Shown in pieces: positions 28,401-34,400 of a stretch of DNA of 64,000 nucleotides. The stretch's first letter is position 1, and every line of letters starts with the position of its first letter. The position numbers were made by a program. The stretch is from NCBI GenBank assembly GCA_963790025.1, contig CAWBMP010000004.1:1568001-1632000 (forward strand), written 5' to 3'. Source of the stretch: Nitrospirota bacterium. GTDB taxonomy: Bacteria; Nitrospirota; Thermodesulfovibrionia; Thermodesulfovibrionales; Dissulfurispiraceae.

Positions 28401-31400
28401 TTTCCAGTCCCAACTGCCCTGCCCGCTTGTACAGGGCGGACCTGAAGGCATGCTGGTCGATCGCCACAGGGATGTCGACTTCGTAAAACATGACATAATG
28501 CCGCGGGCCGGATCTGAAAGCCGCTTTAAGATTTGTGATATTGACCTCATATTGTGCCAGTATGCCGGTGATCCCTGCCACCAGCCCCGGCTTGTCGGGC
28601 CCGAAAGTGGTGATTACAAAGGACTCGCTCAGGGGCTGTCGCATTTTATCGTCGGCCTTCATCGGGTCCACATGCACAAAAAGGCCCAGCGGCGCGAGAT
28701 GTGCCTGCAACTCGGATATTATCATATCCTTATTCTTCCCCTCGCTCATTGAAGCGACAAAGATGCCGACAAACACTGACTGGAGAATAGTCTGGCTGAC
28801 ATCTTCGAGATTGCAGCCCTGCTCGAAAAGGGTCTTCGAGACGGCAGCTATAATCCCCGGCCTGTCGGGCCCAAAAACAAAGACTACTATCTTTTCCATA
28901 TCCTCTCTCCGCGATTTCTACAAATGGGTCAGCTTATGCCTCACTTTAACCTACATAGAATATCATACTATTCCAGGTCCATGGAAACGGGGGAAGGAGA
29001 TCAGCTCACACAATCGGTTTGAATTGTTTCATCATAGCTGGTTTCTTATCCAATATTTCAGAGATCAGCCATATAGTGACTTCGTTCTGAAACTTTTGAA
29101 TCTTACAACCCTTTTCGTAAGGCATTTTAAGGTCGCCATTGTACTGGACATTATTCGCCGGGCACAATCCGCCACAGAGATACCTGGACCAGCAACTGAT
29201 GCACTCCTCACACTGGAACACAAAACCCCTCAACTGTTGACATAACCTGTTCTGTTTGTCAATCTTGAGACCGGTGTCGACGTCCCCTAGCTTGTATTCC
29301 TCGATGCCGACAAAGCCCATGCATGGGTAAAGATCTCCTGATCCTGAGACGCAAAGGCTATTGATTCCTGCACCGCAGGGCGTGGTTTTTGGAGTTTCAT
29401 AATACACCTTGGCTATGTTATTGCTCATCACGACATCGGTTGCATTGTCCTTTTCCAACAACTCCTTCAAATAGAAGTGTGCAAACCTCAGATATTCTTT
29501 CTTCATGTCCTCTAAATCTTCGTCAGAAATGACAAAGTTGCCGTTTCCATTAAAGAGCTTGCTTGCCTCATTTGCAAATCCGACCTCGACATCGGGAAAG
29601 CCCATGTTTTCGAGGAATTTGTAAACCTCCAGTTTTTTCAAATTTGGCGGCGCAAGAGTCGCTTTAATGGATACCCCGACTTCATTGGTGTCCATTACCC
29701 TTAAAACATTCGAAATGACAGTATTCCAGCTTCCCCTTCCATCCTGATACGGGCGATTGAAATTGTGGTTTTCTTTGGGCCCATCGAGGCTTACACCTAT
29801 ACTCAGCCTCCTGGACCTCAAAAACTCGATGATCTCATCGTTCATTACCGTCCCGTTAGTTGTGAGCTTGTAGTCAAACTTTCGAATGCCCCGGTCTTTT
29901 ATTTGATTGCAATAGTCTATGGTAGACTTTATAACCTCGAAATTCAGAAACGGTTCTCCGCCGTAAAAGTCCACCGTGATTTCGTCGTTCTCAGTTGAGT
30001 GCTGCACGAGAAAGTCAATCGCCTTTATCGCGGTCTCTTTGCTCATTTTCCCTTCACTTTTTCTGACGTATTTACCGCCGTCGTTCCAGCAGTATCTGCA
30101 ATGCAGATTGCATCCGGCGATCAAGTTCAAGGTGAAAGTTACAATCCGTGTCTTGAAGTGTATGTTTTCCGGCGGGAAGTAAGAATGTTTGGTTTTTTGA
30201 AACAGCACCCCTCTTCGTTCCAAATCCCGAATTTCTGCCATGGCGTCTTTAACCGCCACTTTCGGGTATTTACCGTGAAGCTTCTGCAGGATATCGGAAT
30301 CTGAGTTAATGTTCCACAATTCAAGGACATCTCTTGCCACGGCATCGATCCTGAAAAACTTCGCGCTCTCGACATCAAAAAGCAGCGTCGTGCCCTCAAT
30401 ATCAAAGATATGCACCTGCTTGTCTTTTAAAGTCTGCATCATCATTGTTTCTGAAGCGAAGAGGTGCACTTCTTTATTTGAAGCGCTATGGTGCACTTAT
30501 CAAACTCGGCAGAATTCCTGCATTTGTTTGTCTTCTGCTTATCAGAAGTGCACTTATTTACCTGGATTTCAATGGTGCAATTGTCTAACTTTTCAGCAAC
30601 TGTGCACTTGTTATCTATCTGGGCATTGGAAGTGCACTTATCTACTTGTGTTGTATTGTCGCATTTATCCCATTGCGCCGCATACGTGCACTTATTGTAT
30701 TGTTCAGCTGCGCCGCATCGATTATTCTGCAGTTCAATAGTGCACTTGTTGAACTGTGCGTCTATAGTGCATTTATTGTATTGCGCCTGATTGGTGCACT
30801 TGTTTACGTTTTCTTCCGCAACACATTTATCAATTTGCGCTGCCGTAGTGCACTTATCAAGCTGGTACGCAACCGTGCATCTGTTGGTCTCGGCAGGAGT
30901 CGTGCATTCGTTCGTTCTCTGCTTATCTGATGAGCACTTGTTCACTTGTATTTCCGCTGTGCATTTGTCGATTTGAGCATCAGAAGTGCACTTATCAATC
31001 TGGTACGCAACCGTGCACCTGTCGAGCTCGGCGGCTGTCGTGCATTTCTTTGTTTTCTGGTTACCGGATGTGCACCTGTCTACTTGTGCCTCTGTTGTGC
31101 ATTTGTCGATTCGTGCCTCGACAGTGCACTTATCAAGCTGATACGCAACTGTGCAGTTGTCGACCTCGGGAGGAGACTGGCACTTGTTTGTTTTCTGGGT
31201 ATCGGAAGTGCACCTGTTTACTTGTCCCTCTATCGTGCACCTGTCAATTTGCGCTGCAACCGTGCACTTGTTGATCAGCTCATCCACGGTACATCTGTCA
31301 AATTGCGCTGCAACCGTGCACTTATTGAATTGTTCGTTCATAGTGCATCTATTGTACTGTGCCGCACCGGTGCATTTATTTATATGTGCCGGCATGGTAC

Positions 31401-34400
31401 ATTTGTCCAGCTGTGAATCTCTGCTGCAATTATTGAACTGATACGCAATCGTGCACCTGTCAATATCGGCAGCACTCTCGCACTTGTTTATTTTCTGGTT
31501 AGCGGAAGTGCATTTGCCTACTAGTCCCTCTACAGTGCATCTGTCAAATTGCGCTGAAATCTTGCACTTATTGAATTGTGACTCAATTGTACATCTGTCA
31601 TGTTGCGTATTTGAATTGCACTTGTTGATCTGTTCCGGTATAGTGCATTGATCACGTTGTGTATCAGTGATGCATGGCCTTTCTTGTGTCTCTAATTTGA
31701 ATTCCTGCAGATTTTCTCTCCGGGTTGCAGCAGTTATTTTCCCGTCAGTTTCAGATTCGTGACTGCCGGCGCTGTGACCTTCCGCATCAATGTTTGACAA
31801 AGGCACGATATGTTTCGATTTAGAAACAACTTTCCCTTTTTTTATTCCCTTTGTTTTCATGATGTGCTCCCCCTTTCATATAGTTACAGTCGAACGGAAA
31901 CCAGTCTATACAGCAATGTCGGCTAAACATATCGCGCGCCTTACTGCGGGTTCGCTGCTCATATCACGGTCCAGAGATGTATCAGTTTTCACGCAAAAAA
32001 AATGCCTTGGTTTTGCACTTGTTAAAGCATATCCCATTTATCTGCCTGTGGCAAGTTAATTTTTTTGAAGCATTACAATCTCTAAAGTCGTTGATTTTTA
32101 TAAAAAACTAAAGCGGTCAGGTCCTGGGGCTTGTAATAGTGGAATAATTATTTATCTGATGACCCGGTCCGTGCCTGATAAAGCTTGTTCGATTTCCTGG
32201 AGAATGTCCTGTTTGAGCTTTGGCAGTTCTTTCCTAAGCAAATCGGCGGACGTGATTTCCTTGGGTATGGCCTCAAATCTTTTGCTGACGGCGTCCAGCA
32301 AAAGATCTCTTTCCTGCCTGCTCTGTTCATTTGAGGACCGGGAAGGAACTGCGGCCTTAACAAGCTGGGCCAGCTGGTCGTTGCTGAGGGCAAGCCTCGC
32401 ATCGATCGAGGCGAGCACGTTGAGCACCTGGTCGAGTTTGTCAACAGTCTGCCTGGATGAAACAGCAGAGAGCTGGGCTATATCTATCATTTGTCCCTGG
32501 CAAGAACCGGGCAGAGAAATATCCGTCGGCCTCACCCATCTGCCGAGACAGACCTGTGGCCCGCCAGGGCCGTTTATGACCGTATATTCGTCAATTACCA
32601 GAGACCAGACAGGCGCTGCACCGGAGAGGACAAAAATCAAACAAATTGCAGTAGCACAAACCAGCTTCTTCATGGCTCCTCCATTTCTTTTGCTTCTTAT
32701 TCAATGAGCAGATTGCAGTTATAGTGCATATTATACAACTAAAATCGTTATATGAAGAGAAAACCAGCTGGAAGTAAGGTAAAATATAAATGGGGACAGA
32801 TTTAATGAATCATCAGCTTATTATTGAGGAAGAGAAGAAGATGCAGAGGCTGAAATGGGTCGTAGACCTCACTGCGGCTATCTTGATGCAGTCCGACATG
32901 ACGCTGCATGAATCGCTTGCGCTGATGGACAATACAAAGAAAGCGGTGCTCAGCCTTTTCCCTGATAAAGAGTTCCTATACGACCTGATATATACACCTC
33001 GCTTCCGGAGAATACTTGACGAACGCTTCACGGTCCCGGACACTTACTCGGGCAAGAACTGACCCTAAAAATTCAAGCGCGTAAACAATAGGACAGAGCC
33101 ACCTACAGTTCCTTAATCAAAACCTCGGCAATTCCTTTCCGATGAGACGTTCTGTTTCCAGCAGTCGGATGACCCACGGCTACGACAGCCATTAATTCCA
33201 TTTCCGGAGGCAAGCCGAGGAACACCCGGACGTTGTCCGCATTTTTCAGTATCTCTCCAAGCCAGACTGCCCCAAGCCCAAGGGCATGTGCCGCAAGCAG
33301 CATATTCTGAATGCATGCTCCTATTGACTGATGGTCTTTGGTATCATTGTACATTGCCCGCCTGTCGGCGAATACTGCAATACACGCCGGGGCGCTCTCG
33401 ATGATCTTCCGGTATTTCGTGAACTCTGCCAGTCGTAACCGGGCCTCTTTCCCGATTATGATGACAAAACGCCAGGGCTGGTTATTCTGGCCGGACGGCG
33501 CCCAGGTCCCGGCCTTGATCATATCGATCAATCGCTCTCTCGCAACCGGCTCGTCGGTATATTGCCTGACGCTCCGCCGCGTATAAATACCATCAAGCAG
33601 ATCCATGGCACCTCCATAAAAATATCTTAGCGTTTTTTGTTATGCCCCGCCTATTGTCCTTACCTGACTTTTCTTCTTAAGTTTCTTGTATGCCTCATCA
33701 TCATTACGTTTACCTGCGACGCTTAAACGCAAAGTGTCTCCCATTACGTCTGTTTCATAATTACGCCCCTCAGCTAAAATAGCTTGTTTAGCTATAATGT
33801 ACTGTTGGGCATATTTACTGTCAAGATCCTAAACTTTTTATATTGAATCGAGGTATATTTAATGTAGGTATGGAATAGTGGCATAAGGGGGAGCACAAAT
33901 GGGATCACATCAGTGGGTGCAGGAATTTCCCGGGGCTGTCACGGTTTGTGGACCGGACGGAACTATCCTTGAGATGAATGATACGGCAGTCAGAACATTT
34001 CAAAAATGGGGAGGCAAAAAGTTATTGGGGACAAATCTGTTCGACTGCCACCCGGAGCCTGCACGTGCAAAACTTACACAACTAATGGAAGAGCAGCAAA
34101 TCAATATTTACACTATCGAGAAAAAAGGTACCAGGTATTTGGTCTATCAGACCCCATGGCGCGCGGACGCTCAATACCGTGGTTTTGTGGAAATAGTGAT
34201 AGAATTGCCGGCGTCTATTCCGCACTTTCAACGAGATGCCCAAAAATAAAACCGCAGAAGGAGAGAAAAATGGAATATGATTTTCTCATAGACACTTATG
34301 ATACAGAACGACTGAAAACCCTTAGCGTTTGGAGCACGTTCATTGATGATGATCTTCGAATTCGCCCTCATCCATTGGATAAGAGAGACAGAAATGCCCT

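What a model noticed while it worked through the whole genome (the two positions that open the first line are those of the whole stretch)
29006..32673. 472-aa protein of 44 tandem Cys-bearing nonapeptide repeats coupled to a thioether-type radical SAM/SPASM maturase
g02625 consists of a 62-aa Cys-free leader followed by 44 head-to-tail repeats of 9 residues (six of them 10), each with exactly one Cys. The consensus is x3-Q-x-[DN]-[KR]-C-T; there are 45 Cys, spaced 9 apart in 38 of 44 intervals. Its stop overlaps by 4 nt the start of g02624, a 479-aa radical SAM/SPASM enzyme whose best matches (full-length but below cut-off) are the Cys-thioether maturases CteB/SCIFF, QhpD and PapB. I read the pair as a protein-sized, massively multi-core ranthipeptide-like substrate and its maturase.
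Evidence so far: Repeat dissection is in call 107. The repeats differ at the DNA level: TRF finds only weak 27/54/138-bp periodicity at 59-79% matches. NCBIfam for g02624: TIGR03974 278.6 bits over 11-459, TIGR03906 274, NF047865 258 and TIGR04068 208, all under their cut-offs, and TIGR04463 (the CrpC family) only 99 bits. Relatives of the enzyme (27-31% id) sit next to other Cys-rich targets: a 493-aa, 42-Cys Tat-signal repeat protein in an Actinomycetota MAG, and 105-aa, 6-Cys Tat-signal peptides in two Nitrospirota genomes. phmmer over 1.8 billion representatives gave 32 hits, nearly all unrelated simple repeats; one 213-aa protein shares 7 such repeats. No word-indexed hit of 259-826 aa was found.
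(Added by a program. Inside this text positions count along the whole contig: contig position 1,568,001 is position 1 of the stretch shown here. "Call 12" and the like, gene names such as g00115 and contig names such as C1 are that model's own, and its searches are not shown. The text may have been shortened before it was handed on; [...] marks where a part breaks off. The agent that wrote the report below was given it as the finding of a first reader that could run no searches.)

Follow-up and report, generated by a model that had tools for sequence, protein, structure and literature searches.

The report
Cysteine nonapeptide-repeat protein with radical-SAM maturase
A 472-residue protein built of 44 nine-residue repeats with one cysteine each sits directly in front of a radical-SAM enzyme that most likely staples those cysteines into thioether rings, and the same gene pair recurs in distant bacteria, so this is a rare protein-sized relative of small ring-stapled natural peptides.

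Summary
Window 30442-31860(-) encodes 472 aa: a 62-aa Cys-free leader, then 45 Cys spaced 9 (x38) or 10 (x6) residues. Its stop overlaps by ATGA the start of a 479-aa radical SAM/SPASM enzyme (29006-30445, -). That enzyme matches the SCIFF, QhpD, nif11 and PapB maturase models full-length, all below cut-off.

New here: the enzyme belongs to a distinct, unnamed clade (SH-aLRT 98). All 6 fetched loci with a 41-45% identical enzyme carry a homologous Cys-nonapeptide repeat protein directly upstream. None of the other 154 fetched loci does. Those six partners have a twin-arginine-like N-terminus and a third gene for a T9SS-tailed CARDB protein; the window has neither. A leader motif, H-[IVM]-x-x-[ILV]-[GS], is found in 7 of 7. 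A complex prediction docks it on the enzyme's N-terminal RRE domain (0.76 versus 0.00 for controls).

Best reading: enzyme and protein-sized substrate, with roughly 44 Cys-to-side-chain thioether rings. The chemistry, the acceptor residue, expression and the biological role are all unshown. A 2026 paper (CrpA/CrpC) already demonstrates protein-sized ranthionine substrates, so this is a new variant of a known kind.

The parts
30442..31860 (-). Gene for the 472-aa Cys-nonapeptide repeat protein (P0001), the putative substrate
   Evidence: ORF and translation. 45 Cys with gaps of 9 (x38) and 10 (x6). No Pfam or NCBIfam family. Single copy in the genome.
31675..31860 (-). Leader: residues 1-62, Cys-free, basic N-terminus, no signal peptide
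   Evidence: Sequence. There is no RRxF[LIV] followed by a hydrophobic stretch, unlike the six relatives.
31789..31815 (-). Leader residues 16-24, including the motif H-I-V-P-L-S; predicted recognition sequence for the enzyme's RRE domain
   Evidence: complex prediction places residues 16-22 and 24 against enzyme residues 21-40 and 64-80. The motif H[IVM]x[MLP][ILV][GS] is present in 7 of 7 family leaders; I wrote the motif after seeing the sequences.
30445..31674 (-). Repeat region: residues 63-472, 44 units of 9 or 10 residues plus a 7-residue tail. Read with Cys first, the unit is C-T-x-x-x-Q-x-[DN]-[KR].
   Evidence: 41 of 44 units have D/N/E two residues before the next Cys and 27 of 44 have Q four residues before it.
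30824..31269 (-). 138-bp (46-aa, five-unit) super-repeat, 3.2 copies
   Evidence: TRF: 77% matches. The three copies are 70-77% identical at nt level, with dS 0.52-0.90 and dN/dS 0.32-0.43.
31867..31873 (-). Shine-Dalgarno-like GGGGGAG, 6 nt before the ATG of the repeat gene
   Evidence: Read from the sequence.
32026..32054 (-). Sigma-70-like promoter candidate (TTGCCA-17-TATGCT) in the 291-nt gap upstream of the repeat gene
   Evidence: 9 of 12 matches. Only 4 such sites were found in the region against 6.8 expected in shuffles, so this is weak evidence.
30442..30445 (-). ATGA overlap of the repeat gene's stop and the rSAM start (translational coupling)
   Evidence: Junction sequence printed. 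No Shine-Dalgarno sequence is visible before the rSAM start.
29006..30445 (-). Gene for the 479-aa radical SAM/SPASM enzyme, the putative maturase
   Evidence: Pfam Radical_SAM 56.4 bits (cut-off 29.5). NCBIfam best hits are all below cut-off. CteB structure 5wgg: E 8.9e-65 over residues 10-462. Member of a distinct clade.
30146..30418 (-). N-terminal domain, about residues 10-100: RRE-like leader-binding domain
   Evidence: Aligns with the N-terminal region of CteB. Residues 21-40 and 64-80 form the predicted interface with the leader.
30089..30112 (-). CX3CX2C radical SAM cluster motif (C112, C116, C119)
   Evidence: Invariant in the 21-row family alignment A1.
29105..29377 (-). SPASM region with seven Cys (C357, C375, C415, C418, C424, C428, C447) for two auxiliary clusters
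   Evidence: Four (C357, C375, C415, C418) are invariant and three (C424, C428, C447) are conserved in at least 90% of A1 rows. Aligned to CteB's SPASM region. The Pfam SPASM model PF13186 itself did not hit.
32152..32673 (-). Upstream 173-aa protein with an N-terminal signal-peptide-like stretch (P0003).
   Evidence: No family. Separated from the repeat gene by 291 nt. A 66% DNA match exists in genus-mate G004, which lacks the rSAM orthologue. Nothing comparable lies beside the six relatives.

Best explanation
The two translationally coupled genes are an enzyme-substrate pair. The 479-aa radical SAM/SPASM enzyme binds a short motif in the substrate's 62-residue leader through its N-terminal RRE domain. 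It then works along the 44 nonapeptide units. In each unit it joins the single Cys sulfur to a side-chain methylene of a residue a few positions downstream, spending one SAM per link.

The most likely acceptor is the near-invariant Asp/Asn seven residues after the Cys (C-X6-[DN]). The alternative is the Gln five residues after the Cys (C-X4-Q).

The product is not cut into peptides. It stays a protein: a chain of about 44 consecutive small thioether rings that is hydrophilic and probably protease-resistant.

In the relatives the modified protein would be exported folded through the Tat pathway and would work together with a T9SS-secreted CARDB surface protein. In this genome both of those features are missing, so the product either stays in the cytoplasm or leaves by an unknown route.

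What is shown: gene anatomy, coupling, conserved synteny, enzyme family placement, and the predicted leader docking. What is inferred: the thioether chemistry, the acceptor, the directionality, that the product is not cleaved, and its role.
For: 1. Anatomy: 45 Cys at 9/10 spacing after a Cys-free leader. The ATGA overlap with the rSAM gene and the lack of a Shine-Dalgarno sequence of its own suggest coupled translation.

2. Conserved pairing. Of 161 loci scanned, a long Cys 9/10-spaced frame occurs only in the window's own locus and in L003-L007 and L082. These are all 6 loci whose enzyme is 41-45% identical over its full length. In each the frame lies directly upstream on the same strand. None of the other 154 loci has one (L002, and 153 fetched by family patterns, with enzymes at most 34% identical or partial).

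3. The enzymes with such partners fall on both sides of the deepest split of one clade (25 rows, SH-aLRT 98). The window's subclade has 4 rows (100) and the Krumholzibacteriota-type subclade 17 rows (100).

4. The enzyme has the CX3CX2C motif and seven SPASM Cys. It aligns end to end with the Cys-Thr thioether synthase CteB (5wgg, E 8.9e-65, residues 10-462). Its best NCBIfam models are the thioether maturases SCIFF, QhpD and PapB plus nif11. This holds for all 21 of 21 clade members scanned.

5. Leader. Complex prediction scores 0.76 against a best control of 0.00. That mark is reached by 116 of 157 solved complexes and 2 of 215 mismatched pairs. The runs agree in at least 22% of contacts, and partner pLDDT is at least 32. 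The interface joins enzyme residues 21-40 and 64-80 to substrate residues 16-22 and 24. The same motif is present in 7 of 7 leaders. A CteB-peptide complex has been solved, so the pass may reflect likeness to it.

6. Unit phase. The tail after the last Cys keeps Q at +5 in 6 of 7 proteins. The residues before the first Cys lack Q at -4 and [DN] at -2 in 6 of 6 relatives. This fits Cys preceding its acceptor, as reported for CrpA (PMC13692751, sections 12 and 14 read).

7. One product rather than many. The six relatives align collinearly with repeat-specific conservation. The window's super-repeat copies show dN/dS of 0.32-0.43.

8. Precedent. CrpC installs ranthionine links on the 28.8-kDa repeat protein CrpA (PMC13692751; abstract and sections 8, 12 and 14 read).
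Against: - No chemistry is shown for any member of this clade, and every named maturase model scores below its cut-off.
- Only 4 of CteB's 6 catalytic-site proximity residues are identical or conservative here: W120, Y161, T195 and S219 against F, F, T and S. The other two differ: M376 and G377 against H and Q. The positions come from PMC10288494 (passages read) and were mapped through the alignment.
- The Pfam SPASM model does not hit.
- The acceptor is a guess. Q5 is present in 71% of the window's nine-residue units and 58% of the relatives'. [DN]7 is present in 95% and 62%. 19 of 155 relatives' units have neither Q nor D/N/E.
- In the window, unlike the relatives, the residues before the first Cys do carry a Q at -4.
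- The window's protein lacks the Tat-like signal and the third gene of its relatives, so it may work differently or be decaying.
- The six positive loci are kin. Four lie in one phylum and all six in one subclade, so the independent lineages number about two or three.
- The structure model is uninformative (pLDDT 36).
Confidence: 0.6

Rival explanations
1. Same enzyme-substrate pair, but a true multi-core RiPP precursor. After ring formation a protease cuts between units, for example after the Lys/Arg that precedes each Cys, and releases about 44 small cyclic nonapeptides.
For: - [KR] stands just before the Cys in 90% of the window's nine-residue units, so each unit would start with Cys and end with a basic residue.
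- The model has no confident fold (pLDDT 36), as expected of a peptide-like chain.
- The window's version has expanded to 44 units from about 30 in the relatives, through a five-unit duplication.
Against: - The basic residue is not conserved in the relatives (K 23% and R 7% at that position).
- No peptidase or exporter gene lies within about 5 kb on either side, nor beside the relatives.
- The relatives' repeats are individually conserved between orthologues, which a set of interchangeable cores would not need.
Confidence: 0.1
2. Same pair, different chemistry. The enzyme makes alpha-carbon thioethers (sactionine), or a non-thioether change at or near Cys such as a C-C or C-O link, epimerisation or formylglycine-type oxidation.
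For: - All named thioether-maturase models are below cut-off.
- The clade is separate from the named SCIFF and QhpD clades.
- The nif11-type maturase model, which I recall as having no established chemistry (no call checked this), scores as well as the others (265.4 bits).
- Sactisynthase RumMC (133.8 bits) and anaerobic sulfatase maturase (113.7 bits) also match.
- Two of the six CteB active-site proximity positions differ (with PMC10288494).
Against: - The three best characterised matches (SCIFF/CteB, QhpD, PapB) all make non-alpha Cys thioethers and score about twice as high as the sactisynthase and sulfatase models.
- One Cys per unit beside a conserved Asp/Asn or Gln is the pattern of known ranthionine substrates. 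It is reported for CrpA in PMC13692751; for QhpC, PapA and NxxcA I rely on recall.
Confidence: 0.15
3. The repeat protein is not the enzyme's substrate. It would be an independent Cys-rich protein (metal or Fe-S binding, or disulfide-laddered structural protein), and the neighbouring rSAM acts on something else.
For: - There are 45 free thiols in a hydrophilic chain.
- A heavy-metal P-type ATPase gene lies 6.5 kb away (21815-23932).
- The Pfam, NCBIfam and Atlas searches assigned no function.
Against: - 6 of 6 conserved adjacency across distant lineages, with a 4-nt start/stop overlap here.
- No other small Cys-bearing candidate substrate ORF was noticed beside the enzyme in the window or, among ORFs of 40 aa or more with at least 4 Cys, in the relatives' loci.
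- Predicted specific docking of the leader on the RRE.
- The ATPase lies well outside the operon, with several genes on the opposite strand in between.
Confidence: 0.07
4. The repeat ORF is a decaying or non-expressed remnant in this genome. It was acquired horizontally, has lost its export signal and partner gene, and has no present function.
For: - The pair was found only in this genome: 0 of 40 relatives and 0 of 400 further genomes of the phylum have an orthologue.
- Genus-mate G007 has ahcY-ACT-DUF711 where this genome has rSAM-ACT-DUF711.
- There is no Tat-like signal and no third gene.
Against: - Both ORFs are intact (472 and 479 codons), with a good Shine-Dalgarno sequence.
- All catalytic Cys are kept.
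- dN/dS between internal repeat copies is 0.32-0.43.
- Enzymes 73-77% identical exist in other metagenome samples, so the window's subclade is a living lineage.
Confidence: 0.05

Closest known systems
CrpA/CrpC of Methanococcus voltae (TIGR04463 family; PMC13692751, 2026)
   Same: A radical SAM/SPASM enzyme with an RRE acts on a protein-sized, leader-bearing, Cys-rich tandem-repeat protein encoded next to it. Ranthionine links form with Cys preceding the acceptor. The substrate has a low-confidence structure prediction, and its role is unknown.
   Different: - Different enzyme clade: TIGR04463 scores only 99 bits against a cut-off of 525.
- CrpA has a 17-residue motif repeated 10 times; this protein has a 9-residue unit repeated 44 times with one Cys each.
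- No CrpB-like second protein is present.
- The bacterial relatives carry a Tat-like signal and a T9SS-tailed partner gene.
SCIFF peptides and their maturase CteB/ScfB (TIGR03974; PDB 5wgg/5why)
   Same: Closest solved structure and best-scoring model. Full-length alignment including the RRE, the radical SAM core and the seven-Cys SPASM region. CteB links Cys to a residue a few positions downstream (Cys-Thr; recalled).
   Different: The score of 278.6 is below the cut-off of 425. The substrate is a roughly 45-residue peptide with six Cys, not a 472-aa repeat protein. The clades are separate in the tree. Two of six active-site proximity residues differ.
QhpD and the gamma subunit QhpC of quinohemoprotein amine dehydrogenase (TIGR03906)
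   Same: A thioether-forming radical SAM/SPASM enzyme that modifies a protein subunit rather than a released peptide. It links Cys to Asp/Glu methylenes several residues downstream (recalled), which is comparable to C-X6-[DN] here. The match is full-length at 274.1 bits.
   Different: Below the cut-off of 453. No dehydrogenase subunit genes were seen among the genes scanned from 21815 to 40794. QhpC has three links in a small subunit (recalled), against about 44 possible here.
PapB/PapA (freyrasin) and other ranthipeptides (NF047865)
   Same: Repeated Cys...Asp motifs, each closed into a small thioether ring by one promiscuous enzyme (abstracts of PMC10739248 and PMC12373016 seen in search listings). 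The match is 257.9 bits over the catalytic domains.
   Different: Below the cut-off of 340. PapA is a short peptide with six CX3D motifs (recalled). Here the spacing is longer, Asp and Asn alternate freely, and the chain is ten times as long.
RTX nonapeptide repeats
   Same: Tandem nine-residue periodicity in a long array (PMC6891781, abstract seen).
   Different: No Gly-rich GGxGxD consensus, no C-terminal T1SS signal and no calcium-binding Asp pattern. The only likeness is the period.

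Membership tests
Radical SAM superfamily | CX3CX2C cluster motif and a Radical_SAM domain over threshold | tested here: met
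   C112, C116 and C119 are invariant in A1. PF04055 scores 56.4 bits against a cut-off of 29.5.
SPASM subfamily | C-terminal seven-Cys motif for two auxiliary [4Fe-4S] clusters | tested here: met
   C357, C375, C415, C418, C424, C428 and C447 are conserved in A1 and align to CteB's SPASM region. Caveat: Pfam PF13186 did not hit at E <= 0.01, and no clade member carries it in the precomputed Pfam column.
SCIFF maturase (TIGR03974) | Score at or above the curated cut-off of 425 | tested here: not met
   278.6 bits. 0 of 21 clade members are named by it (one search lists E-values only; the best is 3.3e-89).
SCIFF maturase (TIGR03974) | Adjacent roughly 45-residue six-Cys SCIFF peptide | tested here: not met
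   The adjacent ORF is a 472-aa, 45-Cys repeat protein.
QhpD (TIGR03906) | Score at or above 453 and neighbouring qhp dehydrogenase genes | tested here: not met
   274.1 bits. The neighbours are ACT, DUF711, nitroreductase, DinB and a histidine kinase.
PapB family (NF047865) | Score at or above 340 | tested here: not met
   257.9 bits.
CrpC family (TIGR04463) | Score at or above 525 | tested here: not met
   99 bits. Only 14 of 21 clade members match it at E <= 1e-20.
Ranthipeptide-type modification | Thioether from Cys sulfur to a non-alpha carbon | not testable with these tools
   Needs mass spectrometry or NMR of the modified protein.
RRE-dependent RiPP-like maturase | N-terminal RRE domain that binds a leader motif | tested here: inconclusive
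   Residues 10-100 align to CteB's N-terminal domain. The predicted complex docks leader residues 16-24 there, scoring 0.76 against a best control of 0.00. This is a prediction and may draw on the solved CteB complex.
Tat-exported protein | Twin-arginine motif followed by a hydrophobic stretch at the N-terminus | tested here: not met
   The window's protein has none. The six relatives have RRxF[LIV] plus a hydrophobic stretch in 6 of 6, but no Pfam or NCBIfam Tat-signal model hit any of the 7. For the relatives the test is therefore inconclusive.
RTX repeat proteins | GGxGxDxUx nonapeptide consensus | tested here: not met
   The unit consensus is T-x-x-x-Q-x-[DN]-[KR]-C. Gly makes up 11 of 472 residues.

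The most novel reading that the evidence does not exclude
This would be the founding member seen so far of a new class of ribosomal 'poly-macrocycle' proteins. A dedicated radical SAM clade would convert a genetically encoded array of about 30-45 nonapeptides into an unbroken string of thioether rings. That would be the most heavily cross-linked ribosomal product known. In its FCB-group relatives it would be exported folded by Tat and used at the cell surface together with a T9SS-secreted CARDB protein, as a new kind of extracellular structural or protective material.
Probability: 0.3. Interest if true: 0.85.

Novelty: new variant of a known kind. Interest (0 to 1): 0.62.

Why it matters
Enzymatic thioether stapling is well studied in short peptides. 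On whole proteins it is known only for the QHNDH gamma subunit and, since 2026, CrpA.

This pair would extend it in three ways:
- a new enzyme clade that no curated model names;
- a substrate with one modifiable Cys every nine residues over 410 residues, far denser and longer than any described;
- in the relatives, a link to Tat export and a type IX secreted partner, which hints at an extracellular role.

The repeat array is a natural test bed for three questions: how a radical SAM enzyme processes many sites in order, what determines acceptor choice (Asp versus Asn versus Gln), and what material properties a chain of dozens of rings has. The enzyme could also serve as a tool for making multi-ring peptides.

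Tried and rejected
- Word-indexed protein searches found nothing, either with the repeat protein against shorter lengths or with the 7-row alignment. They also failed to return the six relatives I already held, so this silence says nothing about rarity.
- The full HMMER search of 1.84 billion representatives with the alignment gave 155 hits at E <= 0.001, of which the best 150 were listed. Nearly all of those 150 are unrelated perfect repeats or other Cys-repeat families. Only the three fragments P0125, P0128 and P0131 belong to the family.
- ESM Atlas: no usable hit.
- AF2 with the family alignment: mean pLDDT 36 and no usable model. No fold search was run.
- Rfam and tRNA scans of the region found nothing.
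- PADLOC gave only generic viperin-type radical SAM matches.
- Expression: no RNA holder was listed.
- Two DNA runs hold short, identical, low-depth contigs of the locus. They may come from the sample the window was assembled from, so they add nothing.
- Catalytic-site proximity profiling could be compared only with CteB. The reference profiles of other enzymes are in figures I could not read, and the one supplement held as text has no such table.
- The supplements of the CrpA paper that are held as text (3 files) do not mention Krumholzibacteriota, Eisenbacteria, Nitrospir*, Thermodesulfovibrio*, nonapeptide or twin-arginine.
- Literature searches found no description of this nonapeptide family. 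Subscription journals are not covered.
- A homologue of the relatives' third gene was not found in the window's genome, but the tool warns that an empty answer without a positive control shows nothing.

Full report
**What is there**

On the minus strand, ORF 30442-31860 encodes a 472-aa protein.
- Residues 1-62 contain no Cys. From residue 63 on there are 45 Cys, spaced 9 residues apart in 38 of 44 intervals and 10 in the other 6.
- Over the 38 nine-residue units the consensus is T1 (74%), Q5 (71%), [DN]7 (95%), [KR]8 (90%), C9.
- The chain is hydrophilic and nearly charge-balanced: K+R 67, D+E 61.
- A GGGGGAG Shine-Dalgarno sequence lies 6 nt before the ATG.
- At the DNA level the units are diverged. 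Tandem Repeats Finder (TRF) finds only a 138-bp (five-unit) super-repeat of 3.2 copies at 77% matches, plus weak 27- and 54-bp periods.
- The three super-repeat copies differ with dS 0.52-0.90 and dN/dS 0.32-0.43 (46 codons each, so the figures are rough). The array is therefore old and constrained, not a recent slippage product.
- The gene is single-copy in its genome.

Its TGA stop overlaps, as ATGA, the start of a 479-aa radical SAM enzyme at 29006-30445.

**The enzyme**

- It has the CX3CX2C motif (C112, C116, C119) and seven C-terminal Cys in the SPASM pattern (C357, C375, C415, C418, C424, C428, C447). All are invariant or nearly so in a 21-row alignment of its closest relatives.
- It aligns over residues 10-462 with CteB, the SCIFF Cys-thioether synthase (5wgg, E 8.9e-65). 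The alignment includes the N-terminal domain that serves as the leader-binding RRE in CteB.
- Its best NCBIfam models are all full-length and all below cut-off: SCIFF maturase 278.6 bits (cut-off 425), QhpD 274.1 (453), nif11-type 265.4 (518.7), the ScfB-related orphan 258.8 (855) and PapB 257.9 (340). CrpC's family TIGR04463 reaches only 99 (525).
- The same picture holds for all 21 clade members scanned.
- Four of CteB's six 'catalytic site proximity' residues (F112, F152, T186, S210, H363, Q364; PMC10288494, passages read) are identical or conservative here: W120, Y161, T195, S219. Two differ: M376 and G377. I mapped them through. The chain index runs 3 ahead of the paper's numbering, which I inferred from the Phe that follows the cluster motif. 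Without the profiles of other enzymes this comparison is inconclusive.

**Relatives and the conserved pairing (the main new result)**

The protein search finds much closer ones: 77, 74 and 73% (P0004, P0006, P0007), 49% (P0008, P0009) and 41-45% (P0010-P0024). Identity then drops to 33% or less.

In a quick IQ-TREE of 80 rows these 25 sequences form one clade with SH-aLRT 98, separate from the clades that hold a named SCIFF maturase and a named QhpD.
- The rows were the window, P0004-P0079 without the 394-aa fragment P0005, and four locus translations.
- Within the clade the window's subclade has 4 rows (support 100) and a second subclade has 17 rows (support 100).
- The careful search did not finish, and I had chosen the group by identity beforehand.

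Scans of species genomes and JGI metagenomes with the family alignment returned 159 loci. I scanned all 161 loci held (these 159 plus L001 and L002) in six frames for stop-free frames with at least 6 Cys and a run of at least four 9/10 gaps.
- Hits occurred in seven loci. One is the window's own locus, whose gene frame and two short opposite-strand shadow frames all pass the filter. The others are L003, L004, L005, L006, L007 and L082.
- Those six are exactly the loci whose enzyme is 41-45% identical over its full length.
- In each, the Cys-repeat ORF lies directly upstream on the same strand. Each encodes 350-368 aa counted from the Met before the twin arginines, with 30-32 Cys, 24-26 of the Cys-Cys gaps being 9.
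- L085 showed 41% over a part only. It is of the Omnitrophota type, with B12-radical-SAM neighbours and no such ORF in its 2.3 kb of upstream DNA.
- The record titles place L003 and L004 in Candidatus Krumholzibacteriota and L006 in Candidatus Eisenbacteria. L005 and L007 fall in the same phylum as L003. L082 is a metagenome contig.

The six partner proteins align collinearly with one another, with repeat-specific conservation. They share the unit x-[ST]-x-x-Q-x-[DN]-x-C with the window's protein: Q5 58% and [DN]7 62% over 149 units.

The pairing is kept on both sides of the clade's deepest split, so the ancestor of the clade probably already had such a partner. The positives are kin, however, and amount to perhaps two or three independent lineages.

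**Differences from the relatives**

- All six relatives begin with M-x-RR-x-F-[LIV] followed by a hydrophobic stretch, which looks like a Tat signal. No Pfam or NCBIfam Tat model hit them, so this rests on the motif alone.
- All six are followed by a third gene for a 632-682-aa secreted protein with CARDB or PPC domains and a type IX secretion C-terminal domain.
- The window's protein has no such signal, although its genome encodes TatC. No homologue of the third gene was found in the genome (no positive control).
- Downstream in the window are an ACT-domain gene and a DUF711 gene. The genus-mate G007 has these at 89% DNA identity, preceded by ahcY instead of the rSAM pair.
It has a 66% DNA match in G004, which lacks the enzyme. 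I do not count it as part of the system.
- The enzyme's orthologue was not found in 40 relatives. One genus-mate has only a 29% paralogue. It was also not found in 400 further genomes of the phylum.
- In the Krumholzibacteriota phylum it occurs in 4 of 208 species genomes.
- The system is therefore rare and patchy, and was probably acquired horizontally here.

**Leader recognition**

A complex prediction used the enzyme (with its alignment) and residues 1-110 of the repeat protein.
- It scored 0.76 in the median of three runs; the best of three controls scored 0.00.
- The tool's mark is reached by 116 of 157 solved complexes and 2 of 215 mismatched pairs.
- The runs agree in at least 22% of contacts, and the partner's pLDDT is at least 32.
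- The confident contacts join enzyme residues 21-40 and 64-80 (the RRE region) to substrate residues 16-22 and 24, which include H-I-V-P-L-S.

Looking back at the relatives, each has H-[IVM]-x-[ML]-I-G followed by acidic residues just after the Tat-like stretch, so the motif is present in 7 of 7. I wrote the motif after seeing the sequences. Because a CteB-peptide complex is solved, the pass may reflect likeness rather than independent evidence. Even so, the prediction and the conservation point to the same nine residues.

**Mechanism proposed**

- Shown: gene anatomy, coupling, conserved pairing, family placement.
- Predicted: leader docking.
- Inferred: the enzyme closes one thioether per unit between Cys sulfur and a side-chain methylene downstream.

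Three points favour 'Cys first, acceptor after'.
- The tail after the last Cys keeps Q at +5 in 6 of 7 proteins, and D or N at +7 in 3 of 7.
- The residues before the first Cys lack Q at -4 and [DN] at -2 in 6 of 6 relatives. The window does have Q at -4.
- CrpA's cysteines also precede their acceptors (PMC13692751, section 14).

Asp, Asn, Gln and Glu all offer a CH2 next to a side-chain carbonyl, which is the site used in QhpC, PapA and NxxcA (recalled, not tested). In the window 41 of 44 units have D/N/E at +7 and 27 of 44 have Q at +5. In the relatives 136 of 155 units have at least one of these. I therefore rank C-X6-[DN] first and C-X4-Q second.

The repeats are individually conserved between orthologues, and no peptidase or exporter gene is nearby. 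I therefore expect one protein product made of about 44 consecutive rings rather than released peptides. A Tat signal in the relatives fits a substrate that is cross-linked by a cytoplasmic Fe-S enzyme before export. The role of the product is unknown.

**What is known already**

PMC13692751 (September 2026; abstract and sections 8, 12 and 14 read) shows that CrpC, a TIGR04463 enzyme, installs ranthionine links on the 28.8-kDa CrpA, which has a 17-residue Cys motif repeated 10 times. It states that similar RS-associated Cys-rich proteins occur widely. Its held supplements do not mention the taxa or terms relevant here.

PMC13128918 (passages read) shows another radical-SAM-matured repeat protein, HxsA, acting in the periplasm.

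Protein-sized radical SAM substrates are therefore a known kind. This clade, its nonapeptide substrate family and its Tat/T9SS context are not described in the papers my five searches reached.

**Verdict**

The enzyme-substrate reading is well supported. The chemistry is plausible but untested, and the role is open. This is a new variant of a known kind.

Noticed in passing
L003:6435-8396, L004:3854-5752, L005:6469-8391, L006:6474-8393, L007:6344-8392, L082:6484-8424: In all six relatives the rSAM gene is followed by a 632-682-aa secreted protein. It has CARDB and/or PPC domains and a type IX secretion C-terminal sorting domain. The L006 and L003 copies are 37% identical. This makes a conserved three-gene cassette whose third member has no counterpart found in the window's genome.
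   Followed up: partly
window 32801-33063 (+ strand 90-aa ORF 32790-33062): This stretch matches at 74-81% DNA identity in all five genus-mates searched, at two places in one of them. The genes around it do not match. It may be a small conserved gene or a repeated element. Rfam finds no RNA family there.
   Followed up: no
L162 (G007:C19) versus window 26974-28921: The ACT-domain and DUF711 gene pair is 89% identical in a genus-mate. There it follows ahcY, whereas in the window it follows the rSAM gene, with no terminator-like site found in the 106-nt gap. The housekeeping pair may therefore be read through from the acquired operon.
   Followed up: partly
P0130 (686 aa, protein collection): An unrelated protein with 28 consecutive diverged nonapeptides of the form x-S-x-x-x-P-x-N-C, one Cys every nine residues, behind a membrane-anchor-like N-terminus. 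It may be another, undescribed Cys-nonapeptide family.
   Followed up: no
P0133, P0142, P0164, P0200, P0207 (protein collection): Large secreted proteins with long arrays of an 18-residue unit, C-[ND]-x-N-G-x-P-D-x-C-[DE]-x-x-x-G-x-x-D, giving Cys every 9 residues. These account for many of the profile's non-family hits.
   Followed up: no
(tool behaviour): The word-indexed protein search scored none of thousands of candidates for this low-complexity query. It did not even return the six relatives known from DNA, so its negative answers for such repeat proteins should not be read as rarity.
   Followed up: yes
L008-L017, L083-L085: The next-nearest enzyme group (30-33% identity; Omnitrophota and Planctomycetia MAGs) sits beside one to three B12-binding-type radical SAM genes and has no Cys-repeat ORF. 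It is a different, also uncharacterised system.
   Followed up: no
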